This document shows, piece after piece, positions 5,540-15,027 of a stretch of DNA of 15,027 nucleotides. Both the position numbers and the translations under genes were made by a program. The notes beneath the pieces were generated by a model that worked only from the letters and a program-made list of their open reading frames with translations, had not been told where the DNA came from and searched no databases. Origin of the DNA: Planctomycetales bacterium (lineage in GTDB: Bacteria > 4484-113); the NCBI GenBank assembly GCA_037445915.1, contig JBBIJQ010000050.1:1-15027 (forward strand). The letters are read 5' to 3'. Position 1 is the first letter of the stretch; each line of letters starts with the position of its first letter.

Positions 5540-6589
5540 ATGGCGTTTCAGATACCAATTAGTGCGCGCAAGAAAGACTTGCTGCTCCTCCTTACTGAGG
5601 AATTTATCCGCACAGTTGCGCCTGTAAGCTCGTCGTCACTCACGCGCTACCAGCAGGTTAGCAGCGCGACGATCCGTAATGAGCTGAAGGAGTTGGAAGA
5701 GCTGGGCTTCCTCAAGCGCCCGCACACCGCTTCCGGCTGCGTTCCGACTTCTGCCGCATACAGGTTATATGTCAACTCGTTGCTCGCCAACATTACCGTG
5801 GATACCGCTGAAGTCCGCGCGCTAGCTAAGACCTTCAACTTGCTGAGCAGCGAAATCAGCAAGCTGGGCACGAAGTCACTTGACCAGCTTGTGTCTGCGT
5901 CGGGATACATGGCTTTCGTTACAATGCCGCTCAACGCTTCGTTTGTCGTGCGCAGCATCAACCTTATTGAAACCGACGTAAACCAGTTAATGATAATGCT
6001 GGTAACCGACCTTGGCGTGCTGCAAAGCGAGCCTATTAAGACTGACGTTCCGGCGCGCAAACTAATGCTCGGCCACCTCAATGAAAGGCTGACTAACTTG
6101 TTGCGCGGGCGCAACCTGGCGGCTGTGCGCCAGGATGAGATTCGTGTCGCCCTAGAGGATTTCGCAGCCTTGCCTGTATCCATCCAGACGAAGCTGGAAC
6201 GTTTTTTCGGCGACATTAAGCCTGTTTCCAGCCGCATCGTTTTCAGCGACGCATACCGCCTCCTCACGCAGCCGGAGTTTTATAAGCTGGAGCACTTTCG
6301 TTCAATGCTGGACAGCGTGATGGACGAGGAATCATTCCTGCGGAAGCTGGAAGAGCGCAAAGGCATTGACCTAGGCGCGATTATCGGCGACGAATTTGGC
6401 ACTGACGAGCTGGCGGAGGTGAGCATCCTTTTCTCCAACTATCGCATAGGGGAGAGTTCGGAAGGGCGGGTTGGGGTTGTAGGCCCGACGCGCTTGTATT
6501 ACAGCAAGACGCTGCCGCTCGTTCTGCATGTTGCGCGCGCCATCAGCCAGGTGATTGACCAATGGAGGAAGGACAGTAATGAAAGCTGA
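5540..6589 (+). CDS. hrcA: Heat-inducible transcription repressor HrcA
   Basis: 349 aa. N-terminal wHTH with PVSS..L....VSSATIRNEL.ELEELGFLKRPHTASG.VPT..AYRLYVNSL. C-terminal L.QPEF, IIGDE and GRVGVVGPTRLYY. A CIRCE element and groESL are adjacent. Confidence 0.95.
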   Translation: MAFQIPISARKKDLLLLLTEEFIRTVAPVSSSSLTRYQQVSSATIRNELKELEELGFLKRPHTASGCVPTSAAYRLYVNSLLANITVDTAEVRALAKTFNLLSSEISKLGTKSLDQLVSASGYMAFVTMPLNASFVVRSINLIETDVNQLMIMLVTDLGVLQSEPIKTDVPARKLMLGHLNERLTNLLRGRNLAAVRQDEIRVALEDFAALPVSIQTKLERFFGDIKPVSSRIVFSDAYRLLTQPEFYKLEHFRSMLDSVMDEESFLRKLEERKGIDLGAIIGDEFGTDELAEVSILFSNYRIGESSEGRVGVVGPTRLYYSKTLPLVLHVARAISQVIDQWRKDSNES

Positions 6590-7703
6590 AGCAGACCTCT
6601 ACTCCATCCTAGGCGTTTCTCCCAGCGCTTCGGCGGATGAACTTAAGCGCGCCTACCGCAAGCTTGCGCGCCAGTGCCATCCCGACCTGCACGGGAACTG
6701 CACGGAGATGGAGGAAAAGTTTAAGCAGGTTTCAATGGCGTATGAGATACTCTCCGACCCAGCGAAGCGCTCGCAGTACGACCAGTTCGGAACGACCGGG
6801 GGGCCGGGCGGCAACGGCGGTTTTGGCAGCGTCGCGGACATCTTTGATTTCTTCTTTGGCGGCGGCTTCGGCGGTGGTTTCAGTGGCACGCGCCGCCAGC
6901 AACGTGATCCAGCCTATTCCGATGGCGAAGATATTGTTGAAACAGTCACGCTTGAGCTTAAGGATGTGCTGGCTGAGCGCAGCCTAACGATAAACTTCCG
7001 CAGGCTTGAGCTATGCCCCGATTGTGGCGGCTCGCGCGCTGCGCCTGGGACACACCCGTCAACTTGCAGGCACTGCAAAGGAAGTGGCGCGCTTTCCCAG
7101 ACAAGGCAAACGATACTTGGCGTATTCAGCACTGCGATGCCCTGCCCTAACTGCCATGGCGTTGGCAGGCTGATTGAGTCGCCGTGCAAGGCTTGCCGGG
7201 GAACCGGGCATACTGCAAACAACAGAGCGCTGAATGTCATCATCCCCGCAGGCGTCTCAGACGGAACAGCGCTTCGGCTGGGCGGCAGCGGACACACCGG
7301 CACTGGCGGCGGGAGGAACGGCGACATACTGCTTCGCGTGCGCGTGAAACCTCACCCTGTTTTTACTACTGAAGGGCCGGATTTGTTTGCTGAGTTGCCT
7401 TTAAGCTATCCAGAACTCGCGCTTGGGACGGAGCTTCACGTTGAGCATCCTTCCGGCAGCCAGATTAAAGTGAAGGTTCCCCCGCGAACGCAGCCGGGCG
7501 AGATAGTAACTCTGCGAAGCCATGGGATGCCGCGCCTGAACGGGAGAGGAAATGGCGATATGCACTTGCTGGTTAAGCTGGATATCCCGGCGAAGCATAG
7601 CAAGGACGAAGAAGCTGTGCTCCGTAACATGATGAGTGCAGGAGGCAAGCGCGGCAAAAACAACGACGGAGTTCGGCAGCTTAGAAAGCTGCGGAACAGC
7701 TGA
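6579..7703 (+). CDS. dnaJ: Type I DnaJ (Hsp40) co-chaperone
   Basis: Probable ATG at 6579 with GGAGG at 6564-6568, overlapping the hrcA end. J-domain DLYSILGV...AYRKLARQCHPD...AYEILSDPAKRSQYDQFG, then a G/F-rich region with DIF, four CxxCxGx(G/R) zinc motifs, and the C-terminal substrate-binding domain. Confidence 0.95.
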   Translation: MKAEADLYSILGVSPSASADELKRAYRKLARQCHPDLHGNCTEMEEKFKQVSMAYEILSDPAKRSQYDQFGTTGGPGGNGGFGSVADIFDFFFGGGFGGGFSGTRRQQRDPAYSDGEDIVETVTLELKDVLAERSLTINFRRLELCPDCGGSRAAPGTHPSTCRHCKGSGALSQTRQTILGVFSTAMPCPNCHGVGRLIESPCKACRGTGHTANNRALNVIIPAGVSDGTALRLGGSGHTGTGGGRNGDILLRVRVKPHPVFTTEGPDLFAELPLSYPELALGTELHVEHPSGSQIKVKVPPRTQPGEIVTLRSHGMPRLNGRGNGDMHLLVKLDIPAKHSKDEEAVLRNMMSAGGKRGKNNDGVRQLRKLRNS

Positions 7704-8587: not shown

Positions 8588-8640
8588 CAAGCCGATTCAG
8601 TCTTATTCCTGAGGAAATTGCCCAACTTCCCGCCGCAGTT

Positions 8641-8649
8641 TGGTAGAAT
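8641..8649 (+). promoter_or_regulatory. Putative extended -10 element (TGgTAGAAT) for the TIR-coiled coil-TPR gene
   Basis: TG-n-TAGAAT lies ~38 nt upstream of the TTG at 8687, with GAGGA at 8673-8677 between them. Confidence 0.5.
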
Positions 8650-8686
8650 AAGTGTTCAAGAACCTTTTCGGCGAGGAAACAGGTCG

Positions 8687-11600
8687 TTGGCGTATCATTA
8701 CGACGTATTCATCAGCTACCATCCGGAAAGCGCGTCGGCTGAGGCAAATTTACTAAACAAAGTTCTCACCGGCGCAGGCCTCCGGGTTTGGTACGACGAC
8801 GTACACGGCCCTGACGAAGAATCAGAGCGCGCCGCGGACGACGCCGCGCTCGTCAGCAACCATCTCGTCGTCATAGTCACCAAGCCATGGGCGCGTTCAC
8901 TTAACTGCGTCCATGAGATGAACACGCACCACCGAGCCTACCCCCATAACCAGCCGATTGCAGTCCTGTTCGCGCCCGGCAGCCTTCCCGCAGTCCTTGA
9001 ACATGCTGTGAAGATTGAACTGGATAGCGAGAGCGGGTGGACAACGCTGCTCAAGCAGACCGGCGTTAATGATGACAAGGCTACAAGCGCCCTAGCGCTG
9101 CTTCCGGAATTGTTAAAGCACTATGAGGCGAAGCGAGGCCAGCCGCCCCCCACCCCGCAGCCAAAGGCTGTCGCTTTTGCGCCTAAGCCTGAGCAGGCCG
9201 CAGAGGCGGAAGTGTCTACGAAGGCGATGGCTGATGATGCCAGCCGTAATGCATTAGAAGAACGCATGCGCGCGCTAGAGCAGGAAGTGCTGGCGCGCGG
9301 CAGAACGATAAAAGAGCTATCCGCACAAGTAGGAAAGTTACAAGGCTCGCCTGCGCCGGCAGCCGCATCGTCGGTTGTCGCCGAATTGGAGGCCGCTAAG
9401 GCGCTCAAAGCTGAGCTTGAAACTAGCTTGGACGAAAAGGATAAGAGTATCGCGGCCCTGCAAAAGCAGCTTGCCGAGCTTGCCGCGAAAGCACAGGATA
9501 CATCCGAGCTAGCATCCGCTTCCAGCGCTATGAAGCAGGCAGAAAGCAAGCTCGCTGAACTCCAGGCTATCGTAAACGAACGCGACGCGCGCATCAATAC
9601 GCTTAGTGCACAAATTGAAGAGCATGCTTCCAAACTACAATCGAAGGATGCGGGCACAGCCGAGCGTGAGGATATGGCGAAGCAGTATGAGGCCGTACTT
9701 GTTGAGCTAGATAAGTTAAAGAGAGATGCCGAGTCTAAAGCAGCAACAGCCAATGAACAAGCCAAGAATGCCTCATCAGCACGAAAGGAGTTGGAGGGAC
9801 AGGTCAAATCGCTGCAGGCGCAGATTGCCGACCGCGATGCGCGCATTGGCGAGCTTAACAAGCACCTTGAACAGCGCGAAGCGCTTGCCAAAGGCGAGCA
9901 GGGAAAGGCGCAAACGCTGGAACAGGTTCTCAGCGAGAACAGCGAGCGAATGCACCAGCTTGAAGAAAAGGCGCATCAGATGGAGGCTTCAGCGCGGGAT
10001 GAGAAAGCGCGCGCAGATATCCTTGAGCGCAAGCTGCAAGATGCCGAGAAGAAGTCTGCCGAACTGGTCGGCAAGAACAAGGAACTCCTGGAGAAGGTTG
10101 AGGAGCAAGCTGAAATAATCAAAAGCGCAGAACGTAACTCGCTGGAAACCGAAAGCGTGTTTAAACGCATGGAGTCGCAGATACAGGAGCGCTTTGCCCG
10201 CGCCAAGTCGCTGGAAGCCAGCCTTGAAGAAAGTAATGTCAAGGTGCGTGGGCTAAGCGACCTAGTTCAAGAGCGCGAAGCGCAAATCAAGGAACTGCGC
10301 GCGCGCATAACCCAGGCTGAAAGCTCGTTTGGCAAAGCGGACGCGCAGATGAAGTCGGCCGACGCGAAGGCCGCAGAGGTTCTTGCGCAACTTAAGGCTG
10401 CTGAAGAGCAAAAAGCCACCGCTGCTGCCCAGGTTAAGGAGCTTCAGGACAGGCTAGCGAAGCTGGACGCGCAAGCAGCAAAGAGCGCAAGGGATGCAGA
10501 CACGCTGAAGAAGCAACTGGAGGAGCGCGCTGTTGACGCAGGTGTAACTGCGAATACCCTGAAAGGCTTAGAGGGAGATCTGCGTGATGCGCATAGGATC
10601 ATAGTTGAACGGGAAGAAGAAGTCAGCCGTTTACAGAAAGCCGTTGACGCTTTGGACAAGCGCATCAAGGAAGCCGCGGATGCGCATCTTACTACAAACG
10701 GCTTTGCAAAAAAACTGGAAGGCGAATTGCAGTCCGCCGTCGCTGAGCGCATGCAGCTAGAAGCAAAACTCGCTAGCCGGGAAAACGAATTGTCCCAGAT
10801 TCGAGAAGCGGTTGAGAAGCAAAATACCAATGTCAAGCAACTCGCTGATAGGCTGAAACTGCGAGAGAGCGAACTGGCGGAAGCGCGCGCAGCTGCGGAG
10901 AAAGGCAGCTCTGATGCTAGCCAGCTTGCCAATTTGCTTGAGCAGCGCGAATTAGAGCTGTCAGGCTTGCTGGCCCACGCTAAGAAGTCAAGCGACGAGG
11001 CGGAAGCCCATATGATTGACGCGGCGAAGGCGCAGGAGATGCTTGCGGCACTTAAAAAAGACTTCGCCGCTGCGCAAGCATCCCTGAAGGAGCAGGAGGA
11101 AGCTGCCGCGGCCGCAGGCAAAGTGAACCAAGAGCTTCAGACCAAAATCGCCGATGCTGAGAAACGCCTGGCTGACGCCGAAAAGCGCGCGAGTGACGCG
11201 GCCGCAGGAGTGAAGGCTAAGGACGTGGAAGTAGCCAAGCTTAAAGCCGCCGCCGATGACCAAGCCAAGCAACTAGCCGCCGCCGCATCTAGCAAAGATG
11301 AAGAAGTGCGCAGCCTTAAGGCGCGTACTGATGAACTTGCTGCGAAGGTTGCGAATGCCGAAGAGCGCGCAGGCGGGCTTGCCGCTAAATTGGCAGTCGC
11401 GGAGAAGCACGCAGGCGAGATTGCTGCGAAAGCGGCGGAAGCCGAGAAACGCATCGCAGATGCCAACAAGCGCGCTGCTGATTCATCCGCTATCGCCAAG
11501 ACGCGAGAAGATGAACTAGTAAAGCTCAAGTCAGCTGCAGACGATCTCGCCAAGCAGCTTGCTGCCGCCTTATCAGGCAAAGACGAAGAAGCGCGCAGCC

Positions 11601-13036
11601 TTAAGGCGCGCGCAGACGAGCTCGCTGCAAAAGCTACAGATGCTGAGAAACGCGTGGCAGAAACTGCCGCAAAGCTTGAGGCCGCAGAGCGCGCAGGCAA
11701 AGTTCATGAGAATTTGGCCGCCAAGCACCAGAAAGACTTTGATGAGATGCATAAGATTGCCGAGGATTACGAGGCCAAAGCGAAGAGACACGAAGCGGCT
11801 GTAAAGGAGTTGACAGACAAGCTTGCGGCTAACGAATCTATATCTAGCGAGATGCAGGCGAAATACCACGAGCTTACTAGCCGCATTACAGAGCTTGAAG
11901 CTCAGCTCGCGGATGCGAATGCATCGGCGCAGGAGGCAGAAGTCAAGGTTGCCGCAGAAGCTGCGCAGGCTGCGCAGCGCATTGACGACCTGAAAGCGCT
12001 CGTCGCCGAAGGCAAGCATGAGGACGCCGTGAAAATGGCAGAGAAACTTGCGGCAGGGGATGCCCACGATAAGCCGCATGTCATCTACTACGCTTGGGGC
12101 GATGCCTTGCACGCGCTAGGCAGATATGAGGAAGCGGCGAAGAGATACGCCCAGGCCGTATTCCCCCACCTCAAATACGGCGATTCAACGTATAAGTGGG
12201 CGTTAGCGCTGGTGAAGCTTGGGCGTTACGAAGAAGCGCTGGGCAGGCTGCAAGTCGTAGCGGAGCTACAGCCCAAGAACGCGGAAGTGCTGCTGCTGGC
12301 CGGGCGCGCGCTTCAAAAGCTCAACCGCCACAAGGAAGCTGAAAACAAGCTTGAAGCAGCGGTGAAGCTTGCGCCCGACAACGCCGAAGCGCATACCGCG
12401 TTCGCGGAATCGCTCATTGAGCTTGGCGATTTCAAGGCGGCAATACCGCTGCTCAAGCGCGCATGCGAGCTGAACCCCAAAGACGGCGACACGCTCGCAG
12501 TGTGGGGCACTCTGTTATTCCGCTCAAAGAAACACGACGAGGCGATTGAACGCTTCAAGGAAGCTGAGAAGATCGGGTTCAAGTGGGCCGACGGATATTA
12601 TTACTGGGCGAACTCGCTTTACATGGTCAAGAAACTTGACGACGCCGTCGCCAAGTTTAAGAAGGCCATTGAGCTTGACCCAAAGGATGCGCGCTTCTAC
12701 CACAACATGGGGCATGCGCTTTCGGCGCTCAAGAAACTTGACGAAGCCGCGAACGCATACGAGCAGGCGGTTAAGCTCAAACCCGATTATTCAAGCGCGC
12801 TTTATGCGTGGGGCACCATCCTCGCGCAAAACAAGAAGCACGAAGAAGCGGTGAAGAAATACGAGGCGGCGGCCTTAGCCGACCCGAAGTTCTCCGCGAC
12901 ATACTACTACTGGGCTATGTCGCTGTCAGTGCTCAAAGACGACGCGGGCGCGAAGGTGAAGATGGCGGAAGCCGACAAGCTTGGCTTCATCCCGCCCGGC
13001 GGCTGGCCGAAATGGTATGAGCCGATAAAGAAGTAA
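8687..13036 (+). CDS. TIR domain - long coiled coil - TPR repeat protein (~1449 aa)
   Basis: Likely start is TTG 8687 with RBS GAGGA 9 nt upstream; the ORF track begins at 8618. TIR motifs are YDVFISY, L...GLRVWYD, S..LVVIVT..WARS.NC.HE and PIAVLF. A Pro-rich linker follows, then a ~900-aa A/E/K/L/Q-rich heptad region, then nine consecutive 34-aa TPRs at 12077-12994. Confidence 0.85.
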   Translation: MAYHYDVFISYHPESASAEANLLNKVLTGAGLRVWYDDVHGPDEESERAADDAALVSNHLVVIVTKPWARSLNCVHEMNTHHRAYPHNQPIAVLFAPGSLPAVLEHAVKIELDSESGWTTLLKQTGVNDDKATSALALLPELLKHYEAKRGQPPPTPQPKAVAFAPKPEQAAEAEVSTKAMADDASRNALEERMRALEQEVLARGRTIKELSAQVGKLQGSPAPAAASSVVAELEAAKALKAELETSLDEKDKSIAALQKQLAELAAKAQDTSELASASSAMKQAESKLAELQAIVNERDARINTLSAQIEEHASKLQSKDAGTAEREDMAKQYEAVLVELDKLKRDAESKAATANEQAKNASSARKELEGQVKSLQAQIADRDARIGELNKHLEQREALAKGEQGKAQTLEQVLSENSERMHQLEEKAHQMEASARDEKARADILERKLQDAEKKSAELVGKNKELLEKVEEQAEIIKSAERNSLETESVFKRMESQIQERFARAKSLEASLEESNVKVRGLSDLVQEREAQIKELRARITQAESSFGKADAQMKSADAKAAEVLAQLKAAEEQKATAAAQVKELQDRLAKLDAQAAKSARDADTLKKQLEERAVDAGVTANTLKGLEGDLRDAHRIIVEREEEVSRLQKAVDALDKRIKEAADAHLTTNGFAKKLEGELQSAVAERMQLEAKLASRENELSQIREAVEKQNTNVKQLADRLKLRESELAEARAAAEKGSSDASQLANLLEQRELELSGLLAHAKKSSDEAEAHMIDAAKAQEMLAALKKDFAAAQASLKEQEEAAAAAGKVNQELQTKIADAEKRLADAEKRASDAAAGVKAKDVEVAKLKAAADDQAKQLAAAASSKDEEVRSLKARTDELAAKVANAEERAGGLAAKLAVAEKHAGEIAAKAAEAEKRIADANKRAADSSAIAKTREDELVKLKSAADDLAKQLAAALSGKDEEARSLKARADELAAKATDAEKRVAETAAKLEAAERAGKVHENLAAKHQKDFDEMHKIAEDYEAKAKRHEAAVKELTDKLAANESISSEMQAKYHELTSRITELEAQLADANASAQEAEVKVAAEAAQAAQRIDDLKALVAEGKHEDAVKMAEKLAAGDAHDKPHVIYYAWGDALHALGRYEEAAKRYAQAVFPHLKYGDSTYKWALALVKLGRYEEALGRLQVVAELQPKNAEVLLLAGRALQKLNRHKEAENKLEAAVKLAPDNAEAHTAFAESLIELGDFKAAIPLLKRACELNPKDGDTLAVWGTLLFRSKKHDEAIERFKEAEKIGFKWADGYYYWANSLYMVKKLDDAVAKFKKAIELDPKDARFYHNMGHALSALKKLDEAANAYEQAVKLKPDYSSALYAWGTILAQNKKHEEAVKKYEAAALADPKFSATYYYWAMSLSVLKDDAGAKVKMAEADKLGFIPPGGWPKWYEPIKK
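10757..11008 (+). repeat. Three tandem 28-aa (84-nt) coiled-coil repeats inside the TIR protein
   Basis: LEAKLASRENELSQIREAVEKQNTNVKQ / LADRLKLRESELAEARAAAEKGSSDASQ / LANLLEQRELELSGLLAHAKKSSDEAEA start at 10757, 10841 and 10925. Confidence 0.7.
11144..11713 (+). repeat. Tandem 285-nt (95-aa) diverged duplication inside the coiled coil
   Basis: GCGCAGCCTTAAGGCGCG and GAGAAACGC each recur at an offset of 285 nt. Protein copies: AEKRLADAEKRA..KLKAAADDQAKQLAAAASSKDEEVRSLKARTDELAAK and AEKRIADANKRA..KLKSAADDLAKQLAAALSGKDEEARSLKARADELAAK. Confidence 0.9.
12077..12994 (+). repeat. Nine tandem 34-aa tetratricopeptide repeats
   Basis: The register is exactly 34 aa with TPR consensus positions, e.g. 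ARFYHNMGHALSALKKLDEAANAYEQAVKLKPDY and AEAHTAFAESLIELGDFKAAIPLLKRACELNPKD. Confidence 0.92.
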
Positions 13037-13045
13037 CGAGTCCAC

Positions 13046-13756
13046 GTGGCCGCACGCAATCAACTCCTCATTGCAGCCGTTTTCTGCGCCGCCGTTTACG
13101 CATGGGTCGCGCTGGGGCTTTTCGTCTTCAAGAGCGCGCTGCTCACAATGATTGTTTATCACGTCGCGCTTTGCGGCGGCGGCTGGTTCTTTCTGCGTCC
13201 CAAGCTACGGCTGCGCTTCAGCACAAAGCGCATCGGCGCAGCCGCGCTCGCGCTCACCAGCGGCTTTGCGCTTACGTGGCTCGTGATAGAGCACATTCTT
13301 CCGCTGCTCGCGCCGCATGCAATCCCTTCTGTGACACTAGGCTCACTCAACGCGGTGGGCTTGAACGCGCAGAGTTACCTACTGATCGCGGTTTACTTCG
13401 GGCTGATGAATCCGCTGGCGGAGGAGGCATTCTGGCGCGGCCGCATCCTGCCCACGCTTGCCGATGCGCGTACGCCTGCGCCTAACCTGCTTCACGCGAT
13501 TATCTTCGCAGGTTATCACGTCATGCCGCTGTCGCTCATGTTCACGCAGCTTTGGCTTCCGGCGGCAGTTGTCTTCATCGGCGGCATCATCTTTGGCATC
13601 GTCGCGCTCAGGACGCGCGGGTTGCTTGTTCCCCTGGCGCTTCACTTTGGCGTGAACGCCGCATTCTCATCTGGTTCTCGCGCTTCATCTACGCGGGGCA
13701 TTAGAAGCGGCATTGCGCGCTCAGTGCTAGAATCTCCGCGTGATAACCAGCGCTAA
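13046..13756 (+). CDS. CPBP family (CAAX protease/Abi-like, Rce1-type) intramembrane glutamic protease; probable 3' frameshift, alternative stop at 13704
   Basis: Multi-TM protein with the family motifs EExxxR (NPLAEEAFWRG), FxxxH (FAGYH) and HxxxN (HFGVN). The GTG start is 9 nt after the TIR gene stop. Confidence 0.85.
   Translation: MAARNQLLIAAVFCAAVYAWVALGLFVFKSALLTMIVYHVALCGGGWFFLRPKLRLRFSTKRIGAAALALTSGFALTWLVIEHILPLLAPHAIPSVTLGSLNAVGLNAQSYLLIAVYFGLMNPLAEEAFWRGRILPTLADARTPAPNLLHAIIFAGYHVMPLSLMFTQLWLPAAVVFIGGIIFGIVALRTRGLLVPLALHFGVNAAFSSGSRASSTRGIRSGIARSVLESPRDNQR
13725..13733 (+). promoter_or_regulatory. Putative extended -10 element (TGcTAGAAT) for rarA
   Basis: TG-n-TAGAAT lies 27 nt upstream of the ATG at 13761. 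Confidence 0.5.
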
Positions 13757-13760
13757 CAGC

Positions 13761-15027
13761 ATGCCTGCACCGACCGCACCCCTCGCCGAGCGCATGCGCC
13801 CGCGCAGCCTCGCGGAGTTCGCGGGGCAGGAACACCTCACCGGCGATGAAGGGCTGCTCAAGCGCATACTGCAGTCGGGCAAGGTGCCCTCGCTCATCCT
13901 GTGGGGCCCGCCCGGCAGCGGCAAGACGACGCTGGCGTTCATCCTCGGCACCCTCCCCGGCTATGAGTTCGTGAAGCTCTCGGCGGTGACGAGCGGCGTA
14001 AAGGAAGTGCGCGAAGTCATTGACGGCGCGGAGAAGAGTCGCCGCATGTTCCAGCGTCCGACCATACTTTTCGTTGACGAAATCCACCGCTTCAACAAGG
14101 CGCAGCAGGACGCGTTTCTCCCGCACGTGGAGCGCGGCACCATCGTCTTAGTCGGCGCGACGACGGAGAACCCGAGCTTTGAGGTCATCTCGCCGCTGCT
14201 GTCGCGCTGCAAGGTGCTGGTGCTGGAGCAGCTATCCGACGAAGCCATTGCCGGCATCATCACACAGGCGCTCGCCGACGATGAGCGTGGCCTAGGCGCG
14301 CTGAAGCTTGCGATGGACGAGGACGCGCTTAAGTATCTAGCGCGCGCGGCCGACGGGGATGCGCGGTTTGCGCTGAACGCACTGGAGCTGGCGGCTGATT
14401 TGCTGGGCAAGGAACACGGCGGGCAGCGCATCACGCTGGAGTTCATCCAGCAGGTCATGACGCGGCGCGAGCTGCTTTACGACAAGACCGGCGAGGAGCA
14501 CTACAACCTCATCAGCGCGCTGCACAAGGCCGTGCGCGGCAGCGACCCCGATGCGTCGCTGTATTACATGCAGCGCATGCTCGCCGCGGGCGAAGACCCC
14601 AAGTATCTCGCGCGGCGGATGGTGCGCATGGCGAGCGAGGACATCGGCCTGGCCGACCCATTCGCGCTGGTGCTGGCGCAGGCTGTGTTCAGGACGGTGG
14701 AGACGGTGGGCATGCCCGAGTGCGACAACGCGCTGGCGCAGATGGTGATTTACCTCGCCGCGGCGCCGAAGTCCAACAGCGTTTACACGGCGAACGGCGC
14801 GGCGCGCAAGGCGGTGCTGGAGCACGGGGCGCTGCCGGTGCCGATGAAGATACGCAACGCGCCGACGAAGCTGATGAAGGAGCTTGGCTACAGCGAGGGC
14901 TACCGCTATGCGCACGGGCACAGCGAACATGCAGGCGGCGGCGCAGGGGGCGAAGGTGCGGGTGCTGGTGGCGGGGATGTGGGCAGCGCGGAAGATGCCA
15001 TGGAGGCGACCGGCGGATTTGTGAACG
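13761..15027 (+). CDS. rarA: Replication-associated recombination protein A (RarA/MgsA AAA+ ATPase), 3'-truncated by the window edge
   Basis: This gene is absent from the ORF track because it has no stop in the window. Manual translation from ATG 13761 gives MPAPTAPLAERMRPRSLAEFAGQEHL, Walker A LWGPPGSGKTT, Walker B LFVDEIHRFNKAQQDAFLP, GATTENPSFEV..PLLSR, YDKTGEEHYNLISALHKAVRGSDPDA, ASEDIGLADP, APKSNSVY and RNAPTKLMKELGY.EGYRYAH. Confidence 0.97.
   Translation, partial: MPAPTAPLAERMRPRSLAEFAGQEHLTGDEGLLKRILQSGKVPSLILWGPPGSGKTTLAFILGTLPGYEFVKLSAVTSGVKEVREVIDGAEKSRRMFQRPTILFVDEIHRFNKAQQDAFLPHVERGTIVLVGATTENPSFEVISPLLSRCKVLVLEQLSDEAIAGIITQALADDERGLGALKLAMDEDALKYLARAADGDARFALNALELAADLLGKEHGGQRITLEFIQQVMTRRELLYDKTGEEHYNLISALHKAVRGSDPDASLYYMQRMLAAGEDPKYLARRMVRMASEDIGLADPFALVLAQAVFRTVETVGMPECDNALAQMVIYLAAAPKSNSVYTANGAARKAVLEHGALPVPMKIRNAPTKLMKELGYSEGYRYAHGHSEHAGGGAGGEGAGAGGGDVGSAEDAMEATGGFVN

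What the first reader, a model, noticed from the sequence alone, without database searches (positions are those of the whole stretch)
8687..13036. TIR effector joined to a nine-TPR sensor by a ~900-residue coiled-coil rod, with no NTPase: candidate new immune or signalling protein
Seen: an N-terminal TIR (~8693-9060), a PPPTPQP linker, a long heptad-rich rod (~9230-12000) and nine TPRs. I found no Walker A/B motifs, signal peptide or TM segment. Established: bacterial TIRs are oligomerisation-activated NAD+ hydrolases or signal makers (Thoeris, TIR-STING, TIR-SAVED, short Argonaute SPARTA). TPR arrays sense phage proteins in Avs/STAND systems, where an NTPase couples sensor to effector. Short coiled coils dimerise TcpB/BtpA-type TIRs. 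Inference: here a very long rod (on the order of 130 nm at ~0.15 nm/residue, if continuous) occupies the coupling position. It could cluster TIRs when the TPR ends bind a large multivalent object such as a phage particle or protein aggregate, or it could form a filament or polar scaffold. I do not recognise this architecture as a named system.
Basis: partly seen in the sequence, partly recalled or inferred. Interest (0 to 1): 0.85.

Follow-up and report, generated by a model that had tools for sequence, protein, structure and literature searches.

The report
Giant TIR, coiled-coil rod, TPR protein
A real 1449-residue gene joins a TIR (NAD-cleaving type) head to a TPR binding domain through a very long coiled-coil rod, but it is inherited like a conserved core gene in one small uncultured bacterial family, so it looks like a stretched relative of known TIR-TPR proteins, not a new mobile defence system.

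Summary
Window 8687-13036 (+) is one intact gene. It has an N-terminal TIR with the catalytic-type Glu77, a Pro-rich linker and a rod of about 910 residues. The rod has no proline for 905 residues and strong heptad periodicity. Nine TPRs and an invariant PPGGWPxWY tail follow. No NTPase, transmembrane segment or signal peptide was found.

TIR+TPR proteins without an NTPase are already known. The E. coli TIR-II antiphage system is one (PMC11350192). Short TIR-TPR relatives of 267-666 aa were also found here. The new element is the giant rod.

The family is tiny: 7 of 24 genomes of one candidate phylum, all in one family, plus 5 close metagenome relatives. The gene is single-copy and sits among housekeeping genes (xerD upstream, CPBP protease and rarA downstream). 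Its dN/dS is about 0.1. Its TIR is as conserved as HrcA, DnaJ and XerD. It has no phage, plasmid or PADLOC system match.

My best reading (0.4) is a clustering-activated TIR NADase whose dimeric rod separates the sensor end from the enzyme end. A non-catalytic scaffold is the main rival (0.3). No biochemistry exists. This scan found the same family earlier on another genome (e1-4900207) and reached a similar conclusion.

The parts
8687..13036 (+). Whole gene: 1449 codons plus a TAA stop, starting at TTG
   Evidence: ORF list and translation. The start is supported by the conserved TTG/GTG position in 6 of 6 orthologous loci.
8687..9136 (+). TIR domain, residues 1-150. The core beta-alpha fold covers residues 5-109 and extra helices run to residue 149.
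   Evidence: Pfam TIR_2 at 31.8 bits against a cut-off of 28. AF2 secondary structure. TIR structures rank top at Z 8.4-7.9 but tie with other flavodoxin-like folds. The PADLOC SAVED_TIR model matches residues 6-132, E 1.5e-8.
8915..8917 (+). Glu77 codon (GAG), at the position of the catalytic Glu of TIR NADases. Asn73 (8903-8905) replaces the Trp of the WxxxE motif.
   Evidence: Glu77 is invariant in 7 of 7 orthologs. It aligns with the Glu of 'WCLDEL' in the RUN1 TIR. Among 267 nearest TIR domains the -4 column reads Y 96, N 42, W 29, F 13. Codons checked.
9137..9253 (+). Pro/Ala-rich flexible linker, residues 151-189, including PPPTPQP
   Evidence: 7 Pro in 40 residues. pLDDT is about 31 for residues 159-185. 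The segment is poorly conserved and carries indels.
9254..11983 (+). Coiled-coil rod, residues 190-1099
   Evidence: 905 residues without Pro. Heptad periodicity z = 21.4, with only the first 56-residue window weak. Indels between close orthologs are mostly multiples of 7: 35, 42, 7, 7, 42, 112 and 70, with exceptions of 25 and 9. Identity to genus g5 is only 27-28%.
11337..11988 (+). Internal duplications inside the rod: 42-nt tandem units and diverged direct repeats 201-327 nt apart
   Evidence: TRF reports period 42 with 2.7 copies. Direct-repeat families D1 and D3. Protein self-similarity peaks at an offset of 95 residues near residue 851.
11984..12979 (+). TPR superhelix, residues 1100-1431: a capping helix plus nine TPR helix pairs
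   Evidence: Many Pfam TPR families match, for example TPR_2 at E 6e-35. AF2 pLDDT 94.8 with 20 helices. Fold match to the OGT TPR domain, E 5e-17.
12980..13033 (+). C-terminal tail, residues 1432-1449, with PPGGWPKWY at 1436-1444
   Evidence: PP(G/A)GWPxWY is invariant in 7 of 7 orthologs. The tail is non-helical yet confidently modelled, pLDDT 82-92. A similar tail, 'LGFQPREGWPEWF', ends the 267-aa mini-homolog P0003.
13046..13756 (+). Downstream CPBP/Rce1-like intramembrane protease. It starts 9 nt after the stop and is probably co-transcribed. It is a context gene, not an obligate partner.
   Evidence: Pfam Rce1-like, E 4e-15. No terminator-like site lies between the two genes. The adjacency is kept in genera g1 and g5 and in L039. 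In genus g2 a PheT-like gene (my reading of the ORF; no family search) lies downstream instead. In G003 the CPBP-rarA pair exists without the giant gene.

Best explanation
This is a stand-alone sensor-effector of the TIR+TPR kind, stretched by a giant coiled coil.

Shown:
- It has a TIR_2-type domain that keeps the catalytic-position Glu and the other consensus residues of its TIR subclass.
- A continuous heptad rod of about 910 residues follows.
- A nine-repeat TPR superhelix with an invariant Trp/Pro tail ends the protein.
- All three parts are under purifying selection.

Inferred:
- Two chains pair in register along the rod. At about 0.15 nm per residue (a recalled figure) the rod would be about 130 nm long.
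- This would put a pair of TIR heads at one end and a pair of TPR domains at the other.
- A TIR pair alone is inactive, as described for bacterial CC-TIR proteins.
- When the TPR/tail ends bind a multivalent or repeated ligand, many rods are gathered.
- The TIR pairs then stack into the head-to-tail assemblies that form the composite NAD+ site.
- NAD+ is then cleaved, either depleting it or making an ADP-ribose-derived signal.
- No NTPase is needed, as in most E. coli TIR-II systems.

The biological setting could be phage or other stress-triggered growth arrest. The conservation pattern says the function is constitutive for this lineage and not a shuffled accessory.
For: - TIR identity and Glu77.
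- The consensus residues F8, S10, W35, D37, S71, C74 and E77 match the majority residue of 267 nearest TIR domains.
- The nearest defence-library model is the TIR of the CBASS TIR-SAVED effector, E 1.5e-8, covering residues 6-132.
- The rod is a true heptad coiled coil and its phase is kept through indels.
- The TPR model is a peptide-binding-type superhelix like that of OGT.
- The tail is invariant and shared with a rod-less mini-homolog, so the TIR and the TPR-tail form a conserved functional pair.
- Single-protein TIR+TPR systems protect E. coli from phage and need the TIR active-site residues (PMC11350192, passages read).
- TIR activity in bacteria depends on assembly, and a CC domain holds AbTir in an inactive dimer (bioRxiv 10.64898/2026.10.06.757174, abstract and passages read).
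Against: - No activity data exist for any member.
- The Trp of the WxxxE motif is Asn (g1, g5) or Gly/Ser (g2). The AbTir preprint's passages call that Trp essential for NADase activity. Asn is common at this position among the nearest TIRs (42 of 267), but I know of no test of such variants.
- A conserved Glu is also present in non-catalytic animal TIRs (same preprint, Discussion passage).
- The evolutionary pattern is unlike typical defence genes:
  - single copy with housekeeping synteny kept across two genera;
  - TIR 63-65% identical between genera, the same as HrcA, DnaJ, XerD and CPBP at 61-68%;
  - dN/dS about 0.10 in the TIR, rod and TPR alike, with dS near saturation;
  - the TPR is not hypervariable (50% identity);
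  - no PADLOC system match and no phage or plasmid relatives.
- Parallel pairing of the rod is assumed, not shown.
Confidence: 0.4

Rival explanations
1. It is a non-catalytic scaffold or tether. The rod is a cytoskeleton-like spacer. The TIR acts only as a homotypic assembly module and the TPR as a docking site. Together they organise some cellular structure, such as a pole, the envelope or the nucleoid, in this small-genome lineage. The layout would resemble Myxococcus FrzS/AglZ, which have a flavodoxin-fold pseudo-receiver followed by a long coiled coil (recalled, not tested).
For: - The conservation is core-gene-like, with one copy per genome in a housekeeping neighbourhood.
- The rod stays long (about 760-990 residues) in 7 full-length members although its sequence is only 27-28% identical and it grows by independent internal repeats.
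- The WxxxE Trp is missing.
- Another effector-like domain fused to TPRs, the SIR2_2-TPR protein, is a conserved core protein of the whole phylum. Such fusions therefore need not be defence genes here.
Against: - The TIR keeps the catalytic-position Glu and every other subclass consensus residue in 7 of 7 orthologs.
- Its nearest library model is an enzymatic effector TIR.
- The gene is absent from 2 of 5 genera of the family (genome completeness 77% and 90%) and from all 17 other genomes of the phylum, so it is not essential.
- There is no match to known cytoskeletal coiled-coil families; crescentin rod scores 17.5 bits against a cut-off of 100.
Confidence: 0.3
2. It is a housekeeping NAD+-linked regulator of the SARM1 type. 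An alpha-solenoid (here TPR plus tail) locks the TIR until a metabolite or peptide signal releases it, and the coiled coil provides oligomerisation. For the TPR to reach a TIR, the rod would have to pair antiparallel or fold back, placing a TIR beside a TPR at each end.
For: - The set of module types matches SARM1: solenoid, oligomeriser and TIR (recalled knowledge of SARM1; SARM1 TIR is among the top fold matches).
- The mini-homolog P0003 places the TIR next to a single TPR and the same tail within 267 aa, which suggests a direct TIR-tail relationship.
- Purifying selection acts on all parts.
Against: - There is no evidence for an antiparallel or hairpin rod.
- Large one-sided indels occur without a mirror-image partner, for example 112 residues missing in G007 near residue 780. 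This is awkward for a fixed hairpin, although shifts by multiples of 7 could be tolerated in an antiparallel dimer.
- The gene is absent from most of the phylum.
Confidence: 0.15
3. It is an exported or host-directed TIR effector, like the Tcp proteins of pathogens, used by a small-genome organism that may depend on another microbe.
For: The genomes are small, 1.5-2.3 Mb. CC-TIR proteins of pathogens exist (recalled; AbTir preprint introduction not read in full).
Against: There is no signal peptide or transmembrane segment. There is no secretion-system neighbourhood. The protein is very large and has a cytosolic-type TPR.
Confidence: 0.05

Closest known systems
E. coli TIR-II antiphage system (TIR + TPR in one or two proteins; PMC11350192, passages read; accessions are in closed supplementary data)
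   Same: It has a TIR effector plus a TPR domain, in most cases without an ATPase, in a single protein. Defence requires the TIR active-site residues. This is the same logic as proposed here.
   Different: No long coiled coil is described for it. TIR-II is reported as widespread and also found in phages. The present family has no phage or plasmid relatives and behaves as a vertically inherited gene. Sequence-level membership could not be tested.
Short TIR-TPR proteins found here: P0003 (267 aa), P0004 (586 aa, identical to the 593-aa G005 paralog ORF from its Met8), P0034 (666 aa). Also Atlas clusters of about 280-290-aa TIR_2+TPR proteins and TIR 'group 6' of PMC7075850.
   Same: They have an N-terminal TIR of the same subclass, with the motif W-x2-[SR]-x2-C-x2-E, and C-terminal TPRs with no NTPase. 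P0003 also ends in the same GWPxW(Y/F) tail.
   Different: They lack the 760-990-residue rod; at most a short helical linker is present. TIR profile scores are only 46-68 bits, against more than 300 bits for true orthologs.
Bacterial CC-TIR proteins (AbTir, PdTIR, TcpB/BtpA type)
   Same: A TIR with a catalytic Glu is combined with a dimerising coiled coil that restrains activity (bioRxiv 10.64898/2026.10.06.757174). PdTIR, AbTir and the 7uxr TIR are the best PDB sequence hits.
   Different: Their coiled coil is short and N-terminal to the TIR, and they have no TPR. They keep the WxxxE Trp, which is Asn here.
CBASS TIR-SAVED / TIR-STING effectors
   Same: They give the closest PADLOC TIR model (SAVED_TIR, E 1.5e-8) and the top structural match (TIR-STING 6wt7, Z 8.4). 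Their activation by ligand-driven filament formation is the model for the proposed mechanism.
   Different: No SAVED or STING domain and no cyclase partner were found by Pfam. The sensor here is a TPR at the far end of a rod.
Avs/STAND-type TIR-NTPase-TPR proteins
   Same: They have the same end domains: a TIR effector and a TPR sensor.
   Different: The defining P-loop NTPase is absent. A coiled coil occupies that position.
SARM1 (ARM-SAM-TIR)
   Same: It combines a solenoid regulator, an oligomerisation module and a TIR NADase. SARM1 TIR is among the top fold matches (Z 8.2).
   Different: The domain order is reversed and the oligomeriser is a different domain. There is no homology outside the TIR.

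Membership tests
TIR domain superfamily (Pfam TIR_2, PF13676) | A sequence match above the curated threshold | tested here: met
   31.8 bits against a cut-off of 28 in the whole protein. 38.3 bits in the six-frame search.
TIR domain superfamily (Pfam TIR_2, PF13676) | A flavodoxin-like TIR fold | tested here: inconclusive
   The model has pLDDT 69.5. The top four VIA matches are TIRs at Z 8.4-7.9, but they tie with aaRS anticodon-binding domains at Z 7.9-7.6. Foldseek's best hit is the RUN1 TIR at E 0.02.
Catalytic (NADase) TIRs | A catalytic Glu at the start of helix alpha-C | tested here: met
   Glu77 is invariant in 7 of 7 orthologs. It aligns with the Glu of RUN1 'WCLDEL'. An E100A RUN1 mutant entry is listed; equating that residue with the aligned one is my own count.
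Catalytic (NADase) TIRs | The Trp of the WxxxE motif, four residues before the Glu | tested here: not met
   The residue is Asn73 in g1 and g5, and Gly or Ser in g2. Among 267 nearest TIR domains the column reads Y 96, N 42, W 29, F 13. The requirement for the Trp is quoted from passages of bioRxiv 10.64898/2026.10.06.757174.
Catalytic (NADase) TIRs | NAD+ cleavage activity | not testable with these tools
   This needs a biochemical assay.
E. coli TIR-II system (PMC11350192) | TIR and TPR domains in one protein, or in adjacent genes, with the ATPase optional | tested here: met
   Pfam finds TIR_2 plus TPRs in one chain and no ATPase.
E. coli TIR-II system (PMC11350192) | Sequence homology of the TIR and TPR to the E. 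coli TIR-II protein | not testable with these tools
   The accessions are only in Supplementary Data 2, which is closed. There are no tblastn hits of this TIR in phages or plasmids.
E. coli TIR-II system (PMC11350192) | Antiphage activity | not testable with these tools
   This needs a phage challenge.
Thoeris (ThsB + ThsA) | A ThsB-type TIR (PF08937) with an adjacent ThsA (SIR2 or TM plus SLOG) | tested here: not met
   There is no PF08937 hit. The neighbours are xerD, CPBP and rarA. The only SIR2_2 protein lies on another contig, is fused to TPRs, and is conserved in genomes that lack the TIR gene.
STAND/Avs NTPases | A P-loop NTPase (Walker A/B) between the effector and the repeats | tested here: not met
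   No [AG]x4GK[ST] and no GK[ST] motif anywhere. No NTPase Pfam domain.
CBASS TIR-SAVED / TIR-STING | A SAVED or STING sensor domain and a CD-NTase operon | tested here: not met
   Only the TIR part of the PADLOC SAVED_TIR model matches, positions 15-143 of 404. There is no cyclase among the neighbours.
SMC/Rad50/Lamassu LmuB/Wadjet JetC long coiled-coil ATPases | ABC-type ATPase head domains flanking the coiled coil | tested here: not met
   The matches fall only on coiled-coil stretches and far below cut-offs. SMC_prok_B scores 83.7 bits against 567. LmuB and JetC match within residues 236-828. There is no Walker A.
Crescentin/intermediate-filament-like CCRPs | A match to the rod-domain family | tested here: not met
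   Rod_CreS scores 17.5 bits against a cut-off of 100.

The most novel reading that the evidence does not exclude
The TIR is an active enzyme used for a constitutive cell-biological purpose, not for phage defence. In this reading a parallel coiled coil of about 130 nm acts as a fixed-length tether. It reports events at a distant site bound by the TPR/tail end (envelope, pole or a large assembly) by switching NAD+ cleavage or signal synthesis at the other end. This would be a bacterial 'TIR on a stick' mechanosensor or ruler, invented once in a candidate phylum by inflating a short TIR-TPR protein.
Probability: 0.12. Interest if true: 0.85.

Novelty: new variant of a known kind. Interest (0 to 1): 0.5.

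Why it matters
Nearly all bacterial TIR proteins studied so far are mobile defence or virulence factors. They are regulated by small sensor domains, NTPases or partner proteins.

In this gene the same effector-sensor pair (TIR + TPR) is pulled about 130 nm apart by a heptad-perfect rod. All three parts have then been kept under purifying selection as a single-copy chromosomal gene in a streamlined, uncultured lineage.

If the TIR is active, the protein would show how clustering at one end of a long rod can control an enzyme at the other end without any NTPase. It would also give a natural test of how much geometry matters for TIR activation.

If the TIR is inactive, this would be a case of a TIR domain recruited as a structural assembly module in bacteria.

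Either answer can be reached with ordinary expression, NADase and EM experiments.

Tried and rejected
- The search for homologous proteins with residues 1-185 found nothing at near lengths or shorter lengths. This is a word-index limit, not evidence of absence.
- The profile search of 1.84 billion representatives did not recover the family itself. The best hit was E 2.4e-15 with none at 1e-30 or better, although a G005 paralog is in that library. The library is therefore incomplete for this family, and rarity cannot be argued from it alone.
- Complex prediction of the TIR (1-152) against the TPR-tail (1100-1449) scored 0.00 in both runs. The tool gave no verdict.
- The look-up of sequencing runs listed no RNA holder. 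It listed only 4 DNA runs of one study, so nothing can be said on expression.
- The promoter and terminator scan found no more sites than shuffles give.
- The Rfam scan of the window found no matches.
- The idea of the rod as a strict molecular ruler was weakened. Rod spans looked tight at 866-987 residues in five orthologs, but metagenome members extend the range to about 760 and about 920, and one has about 19 TPRs.
- A 'CPBP protease partner' was rejected as obligate. The adjacency is absent in genus g2, and the CPBP-rarA pair exists without the giant gene in G003.
- Linkage with the SIR2_2-TPR protein as a Thoeris-like pair was rejected. That protein is conserved in genomes without the TIR gene.
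- A 'Planctomycetales' identity comes from the depositor label of one relative. It is doubtful because FtsZ-type tubulin is present in 5 of 5 genomes tested and the GTDB phylum holds only 24 genomes. That Planctomycetales lack FtsZ is recalled, not tested.
- Literature searches for this architecture found no description of a TIR/long coiled-coil/TPR protein. The searches were 'TIR-TPR'; TIR domain + coiled-coil + bacterial TIR + NADase + domain architectures; Planctomycetes + coiled-coil + TIR domain; and TIR + TPR repeats + coiled-coil + NAD+ + prokaryotic + effector-associated.
Full report
THE GENE

The window holds one long ORF on the + strand, 8618..13036. In 6 of 6 orthologous loci where I looked, a TTG or GTG lies three or four codons before the conserved YD.F(I/V)S strand. 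In the same-genus genome an in-frame stop lies only four codons further upstream. The product is 1449 residues. Independent contigs from four runs of a single study tile the whole gene without joints. One 2715-nt contig crosses the repeat zone of the rod, so I see no sign of a chimeric assembly. The best holder may be the source sample, so this is weak independent support.

ANATOMY

Residues 7-113 match Pfam TIR_2 above its curated threshold, 31.8 against 28 bits. The six-frame search gives 38.3 bits. Six of the eight weak PDB sequence hits are TIR proteins, led by PdTIR, a bacterial TIR (7uxr) and AbTir. A profile of seven orthologs hits three plant TIRs and nothing else at E <= 0.01. It aligns Glu77 with the Glu of 'WCLDEL' in RUN1.

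The AF2 model of residues 1-185 is of middling confidence, pLDDT 69.5. Its best matches in an unfiltered structure search are TIR-STING, SARM1, TIR-1 and a Hydra TIR (Z 8.4-7.9). These tie with the anticodon-binding domains of class II aaRS, and Foldseek gave nothing at E <= 0.001. The TIR call therefore rests on sequence, with fold as consistent but not decisive support.

A Pro/Ala linker (151-189, including PPPTPQP) is disordered in the model.

Then comes the rod. There is no proline for 905 residues (225-1129), and the composition is A22 E14 K11 L10 %. Hydrophobic periodicity at 3.5 residues is 21 standard deviations above shuffles. Only the very first 56-residue window is weak.

Indels between close orthologs inside the rod are 35, 42, 7, 7 and 25 residues for the window against G001. 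Among the g5 genomes they are 42, 112 and 70, plus a 9 near the rod's start. Seven of these nine are multiples of seven. The g5 comparisons are not independent of each other. The heptad phase is being preserved, which marks a true coiled coil and not a single alpha-helix or low-complexity filler.

The C-terminal 350 residues fold with pLDDT 94.8 into a capping helix, nine TPR helix pairs and an ordered non-helical tail. The nearest solved structure is the OGT TPR superhelix. The tail motif PP(G/A)GWPxWY is invariant in 7 of 7 orthologs.

There is no Walker A motif, no GK[ST], no hydrophobic segment that could span a membrane, and no NTPase domain in Pfam or NCBIfam.

WHERE IT OCCURS

The genome is a 1.79-Mb, 90%-complete assembly. 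Its GTDB phylum, as held here, has only 24 species genomes. The TIR profile finds the family in 7 of these 24, counting the window's own genome. That is 3 of 13 genera, all in one family: 6 of 8 relatives there, and 0 of 15 genomes of the other three families at E <= 1e-8. The two family genera without it are 77% and 90% complete.

Five close relatives turned up among 47 confirmed metagenome loci. They include an uninterrupted 1303-residue form and an 1836-residue form with about 19 TPRs.

The 1.84-billion-protein representative library does not contain the family at all (best E 2.4e-15). It does contain another protein of one of these genomes, so that library is incomplete for this family. 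The TIR has no tblastn match in 50,697 phage or 72,556 plasmid records.

The window's genome has this one TIR_2 match only.

CONTEXT AND SELECTION

In the window the order is groES-groEL (minus strand), hrcA, dnaJ, xerD, the giant gene, a CPBP/Rce1-type intramembrane protease starting 9 nt after its stop, and rarA/mgsA. The same order holds in the same-genus genome, in three genomes of a second genus and in one metagenome contig.

In the third genus the gene sits elsewhere. The ORFs around it look to me like a divergent lipB and a downstream pheT; I ran no family search on them. In G003 the CPBP-rarA pair exists with no giant gene upstream. In G004 the xerD-dnaJ-hrcA block is rearranged and rarA has other neighbours. 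No partner gene is therefore conserved with it across all three genera. The protease is a neighbour, not an obligate partner.

Between the two syntenic genera the TIR is 63-65% identical. HrcA, DnaJ, XerD and CPBP are 61-68% identical. The TPR is 50% and the rod 27-28%. Between the two same-genus genomes dN/dS is about 0.10 in the TIR, rod and TPR alike, against 0.04-0.25 for the neighbours; dS is near saturation for the TIR and rod.

No PADLOC system is matched. The whole protein gives only coiled-coil noise. The TIR alone matches the TIR part of the CBASS SAVED-TIR effector model at E 1.5e-8. This is the profile of a vertically inherited gene under purifying selection, not of a shuffled defence-island gene.

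RELATIVES AND ORIGIN

The best library hits to the TIR profile include short proteins with the same layout minus the rod.
- P0004 (586 aa) is identical, from its Met8, to a 593-aa paralog ORF in genome G005, which also has the giant gene.
- P0034 is 666 aa.
- P0003 is 267 aa and consists of a TIR, about one TPR and a C-terminal 'LGFQPREGWPEWF' that mirrors the giant protein's tail.

All share the subclass motif W-x2-[SR]-x2-C-x2-E. The protein atlas lists clusters of about 280-290-aa TIR_2+TPR proteins with 297 and 81 members. Their scores of 0.85 are below the 0.9 mark, so these are leads only. The giant protein thus looks like a short TIR-TPR-tail protein whose linker was inflated by repeated internal duplication. 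Traces remain as 42-nt tandem units and diverged repeats at 11337-11988, and as a different five-fold repeat in the G008 ortholog.

IS THE TIR AN ENZYME?

For:
- Glu77 is invariant.
- F8, S10, W35, D37, S71 and C74 match the majority residues of 267 TIR domains from the 150 nearest proteins.
- The nearest defence-library model is an enzymatic effector TIR.

Against:
- The Trp of the WxxxE motif is Asn, or Gly/Ser in one genus. Passages of the AbTir preprint (bioRxiv 10.64898/2026.10.06.757174) call this Trp essential for NADase activity.
- The same preprint notes that non-catalytic animal TIRs also keep the Glu.

Asn is the second commonest residue at that position among the nearest TIRs: Y 96, N 42, W 29, F 13 of 267. 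The substitution is thus a subclass trait and not decay. Its effect on catalysis is unknown to me.

MECHANISM

I commit, at 0.4, to a clustering-activated TIR NADase.

The shown steps are the domain identities, the continuous heptad rod, the TPR superhelix with its conserved tail, and purifying selection on all parts.

The inferred steps are:
- in-register parallel pairing of two chains, giving a rod of about 130 nm at about 0.15 nm per residue (a recalled figure);
- an inactive TIR pair at one end, by analogy with AbTir, whose coiled coil holds a TIR dimer in an inactive state (preprint abstract and passages);
- ligand binding by the TPR/tail at the other end;
- activation when many rods are gathered so that TIR pairs can stack into catalytic head-to-tail assemblies, as in TIR-STING, TIR-SAVED and AbTir filaments.

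That no NTPase is needed is supported by E. coli TIR-II. It is a TIR+TPR system in one or two proteins and is reported as the most widespread of the nine new TIR systems. Only about 30% of its members carry an ATPase, and its defence needs the TIR active-site residues (PMC11350192, passages read; supplements closed).

The main rival (0.3) is a non-catalytic scaffold or tether. It is favoured by the core-like evolution and by the fact that a second effector-like fusion, a 983-aa SIR2_2-TPR protein, is conserved right across the phylum. A SARM1-like autoinhibited regulator (0.15) would need an antiparallel or folded rod. A complex prediction of TIR with TPR-tail gave no verdict and says nothing either way. 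An exported effector (0.05) lacks any export signal.

COMPARISON AND NOVELTY

By architecture the protein meets the description of TIR-II (TIR + TPR, ATPase optional). Homology could not be tested because the accessions are in closed supplements. It fails the defining features of Thoeris, STAND/Avs, CBASS TIR effectors, SMC-type proteins and crescentin-like proteins (see the membership table).

Four literature searches and the passages I read in PMC7075850, PMC7159879, PMC8195603, bioRxiv 10.1101/2023.05.26.542521 and PMC11350192 describe TIR+TPR fusions. None describes a version with a coiled-coil rod several hundred residues long.

I therefore rate it a new variant of a known kind. This scan met the same family earlier on another genome (e1-4900207). 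Its follow-up also judged it core-like and named TIR-II as the closest known system. I reached the core-like verdict before seeing that note. I disagree with its 'protease partner' wording, for the reasons given under context.

VERDICT

Interest is 0.5. The architecture is unusual and the conservation pattern is unexpected for a TIR protein. But the effector-sensor logic is already known, the family is tiny, and nothing about its activity is established.

Noticed in passing
L089:5369-8320 (-) = G000:C13, about 25368-28319: A 983-aa protein with a SIR2_2 domain (residues 172-278, 31.2 bits against a cut-off of 24.5) and about 14 TPRs lies beside bshC and a flavoprotein gene. Full-length orthologs (38-66% identity) occur in 4 of the 5 other genomes tested, across three families of the phylum; in the fifth, G016, it is split over two contigs. 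These include genomes that lack the TIR gene. It is a second NAD-type effector-like domain fused to TPRs that behaves as a core gene.
   Followed up: partly
L015:1060-5490 (G001:C1): This is a second, degraded copy of the giant gene in the same-genus genome, with 17 in-frame stops in all. It is followed by the same CPBP gene and a broken rarA. It looks like an error-ridden duplicate contig of the same locus and not a true pseudogene.
   Followed up: partly
L038:175-1956 (-) = G005:C11: This is a 593-aa paralog made of a TIR, a short helical linker and about 8 TPRs. It occurs in a genome that also has the giant gene. From its Met8 it is identical to library protein P0004. It may resemble the ancestral short form.
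   Followed up: partly
P0003 (267 aa, metagenome protein; cluster of 3): This mini-homolog has a TIR, about one TPR and a C-terminal LGFQPREGWPEWF tail like the giant protein's PPGGWPKWY tail. Its source organism and neighbours could not be examined.
   Followed up: no
L043:4511-10018 (+), metagenome contig: This is the genus-g2-type ortholog without an assembly gap. It is 1836 aa, with a rod of about 920 residues and about 19 TPRs, so TPR number varies about two-fold within the family. In G002 and G006 the same gene is broken by a run of N or by contig ends inside the rod.
   Followed up: partly
window 5540-7703: The hrcA ORF (5540-6589) and the dnaJ ORF as listed from its first TTG (6555-7703) overlap by 35 nt. 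groES-groEL lie divergently upstream at 5337-3360. Together they form a compact heat-shock cluster directly upstream of xerD.
   Followed up: no
whole genome G000 and relatives: The GTDB phylum as held here has only 24 species genomes. One relative's public record is labelled 'Planctomycetales bacterium', yet FtsZ-type tubulin genes are present in 5 of 5 genomes tested. The label is doubtful.
   Followed up: partly
window 13543-13868: In contigs of runs X2-X4, strain differences crowd into the 3' end of the CPBP gene and the start of rarA. One contig carries a 1-nt insertion behind 13665. Only two differences inside the giant gene are among the 40 rows shown; 87 further rows were not shown.
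   Followed up: no
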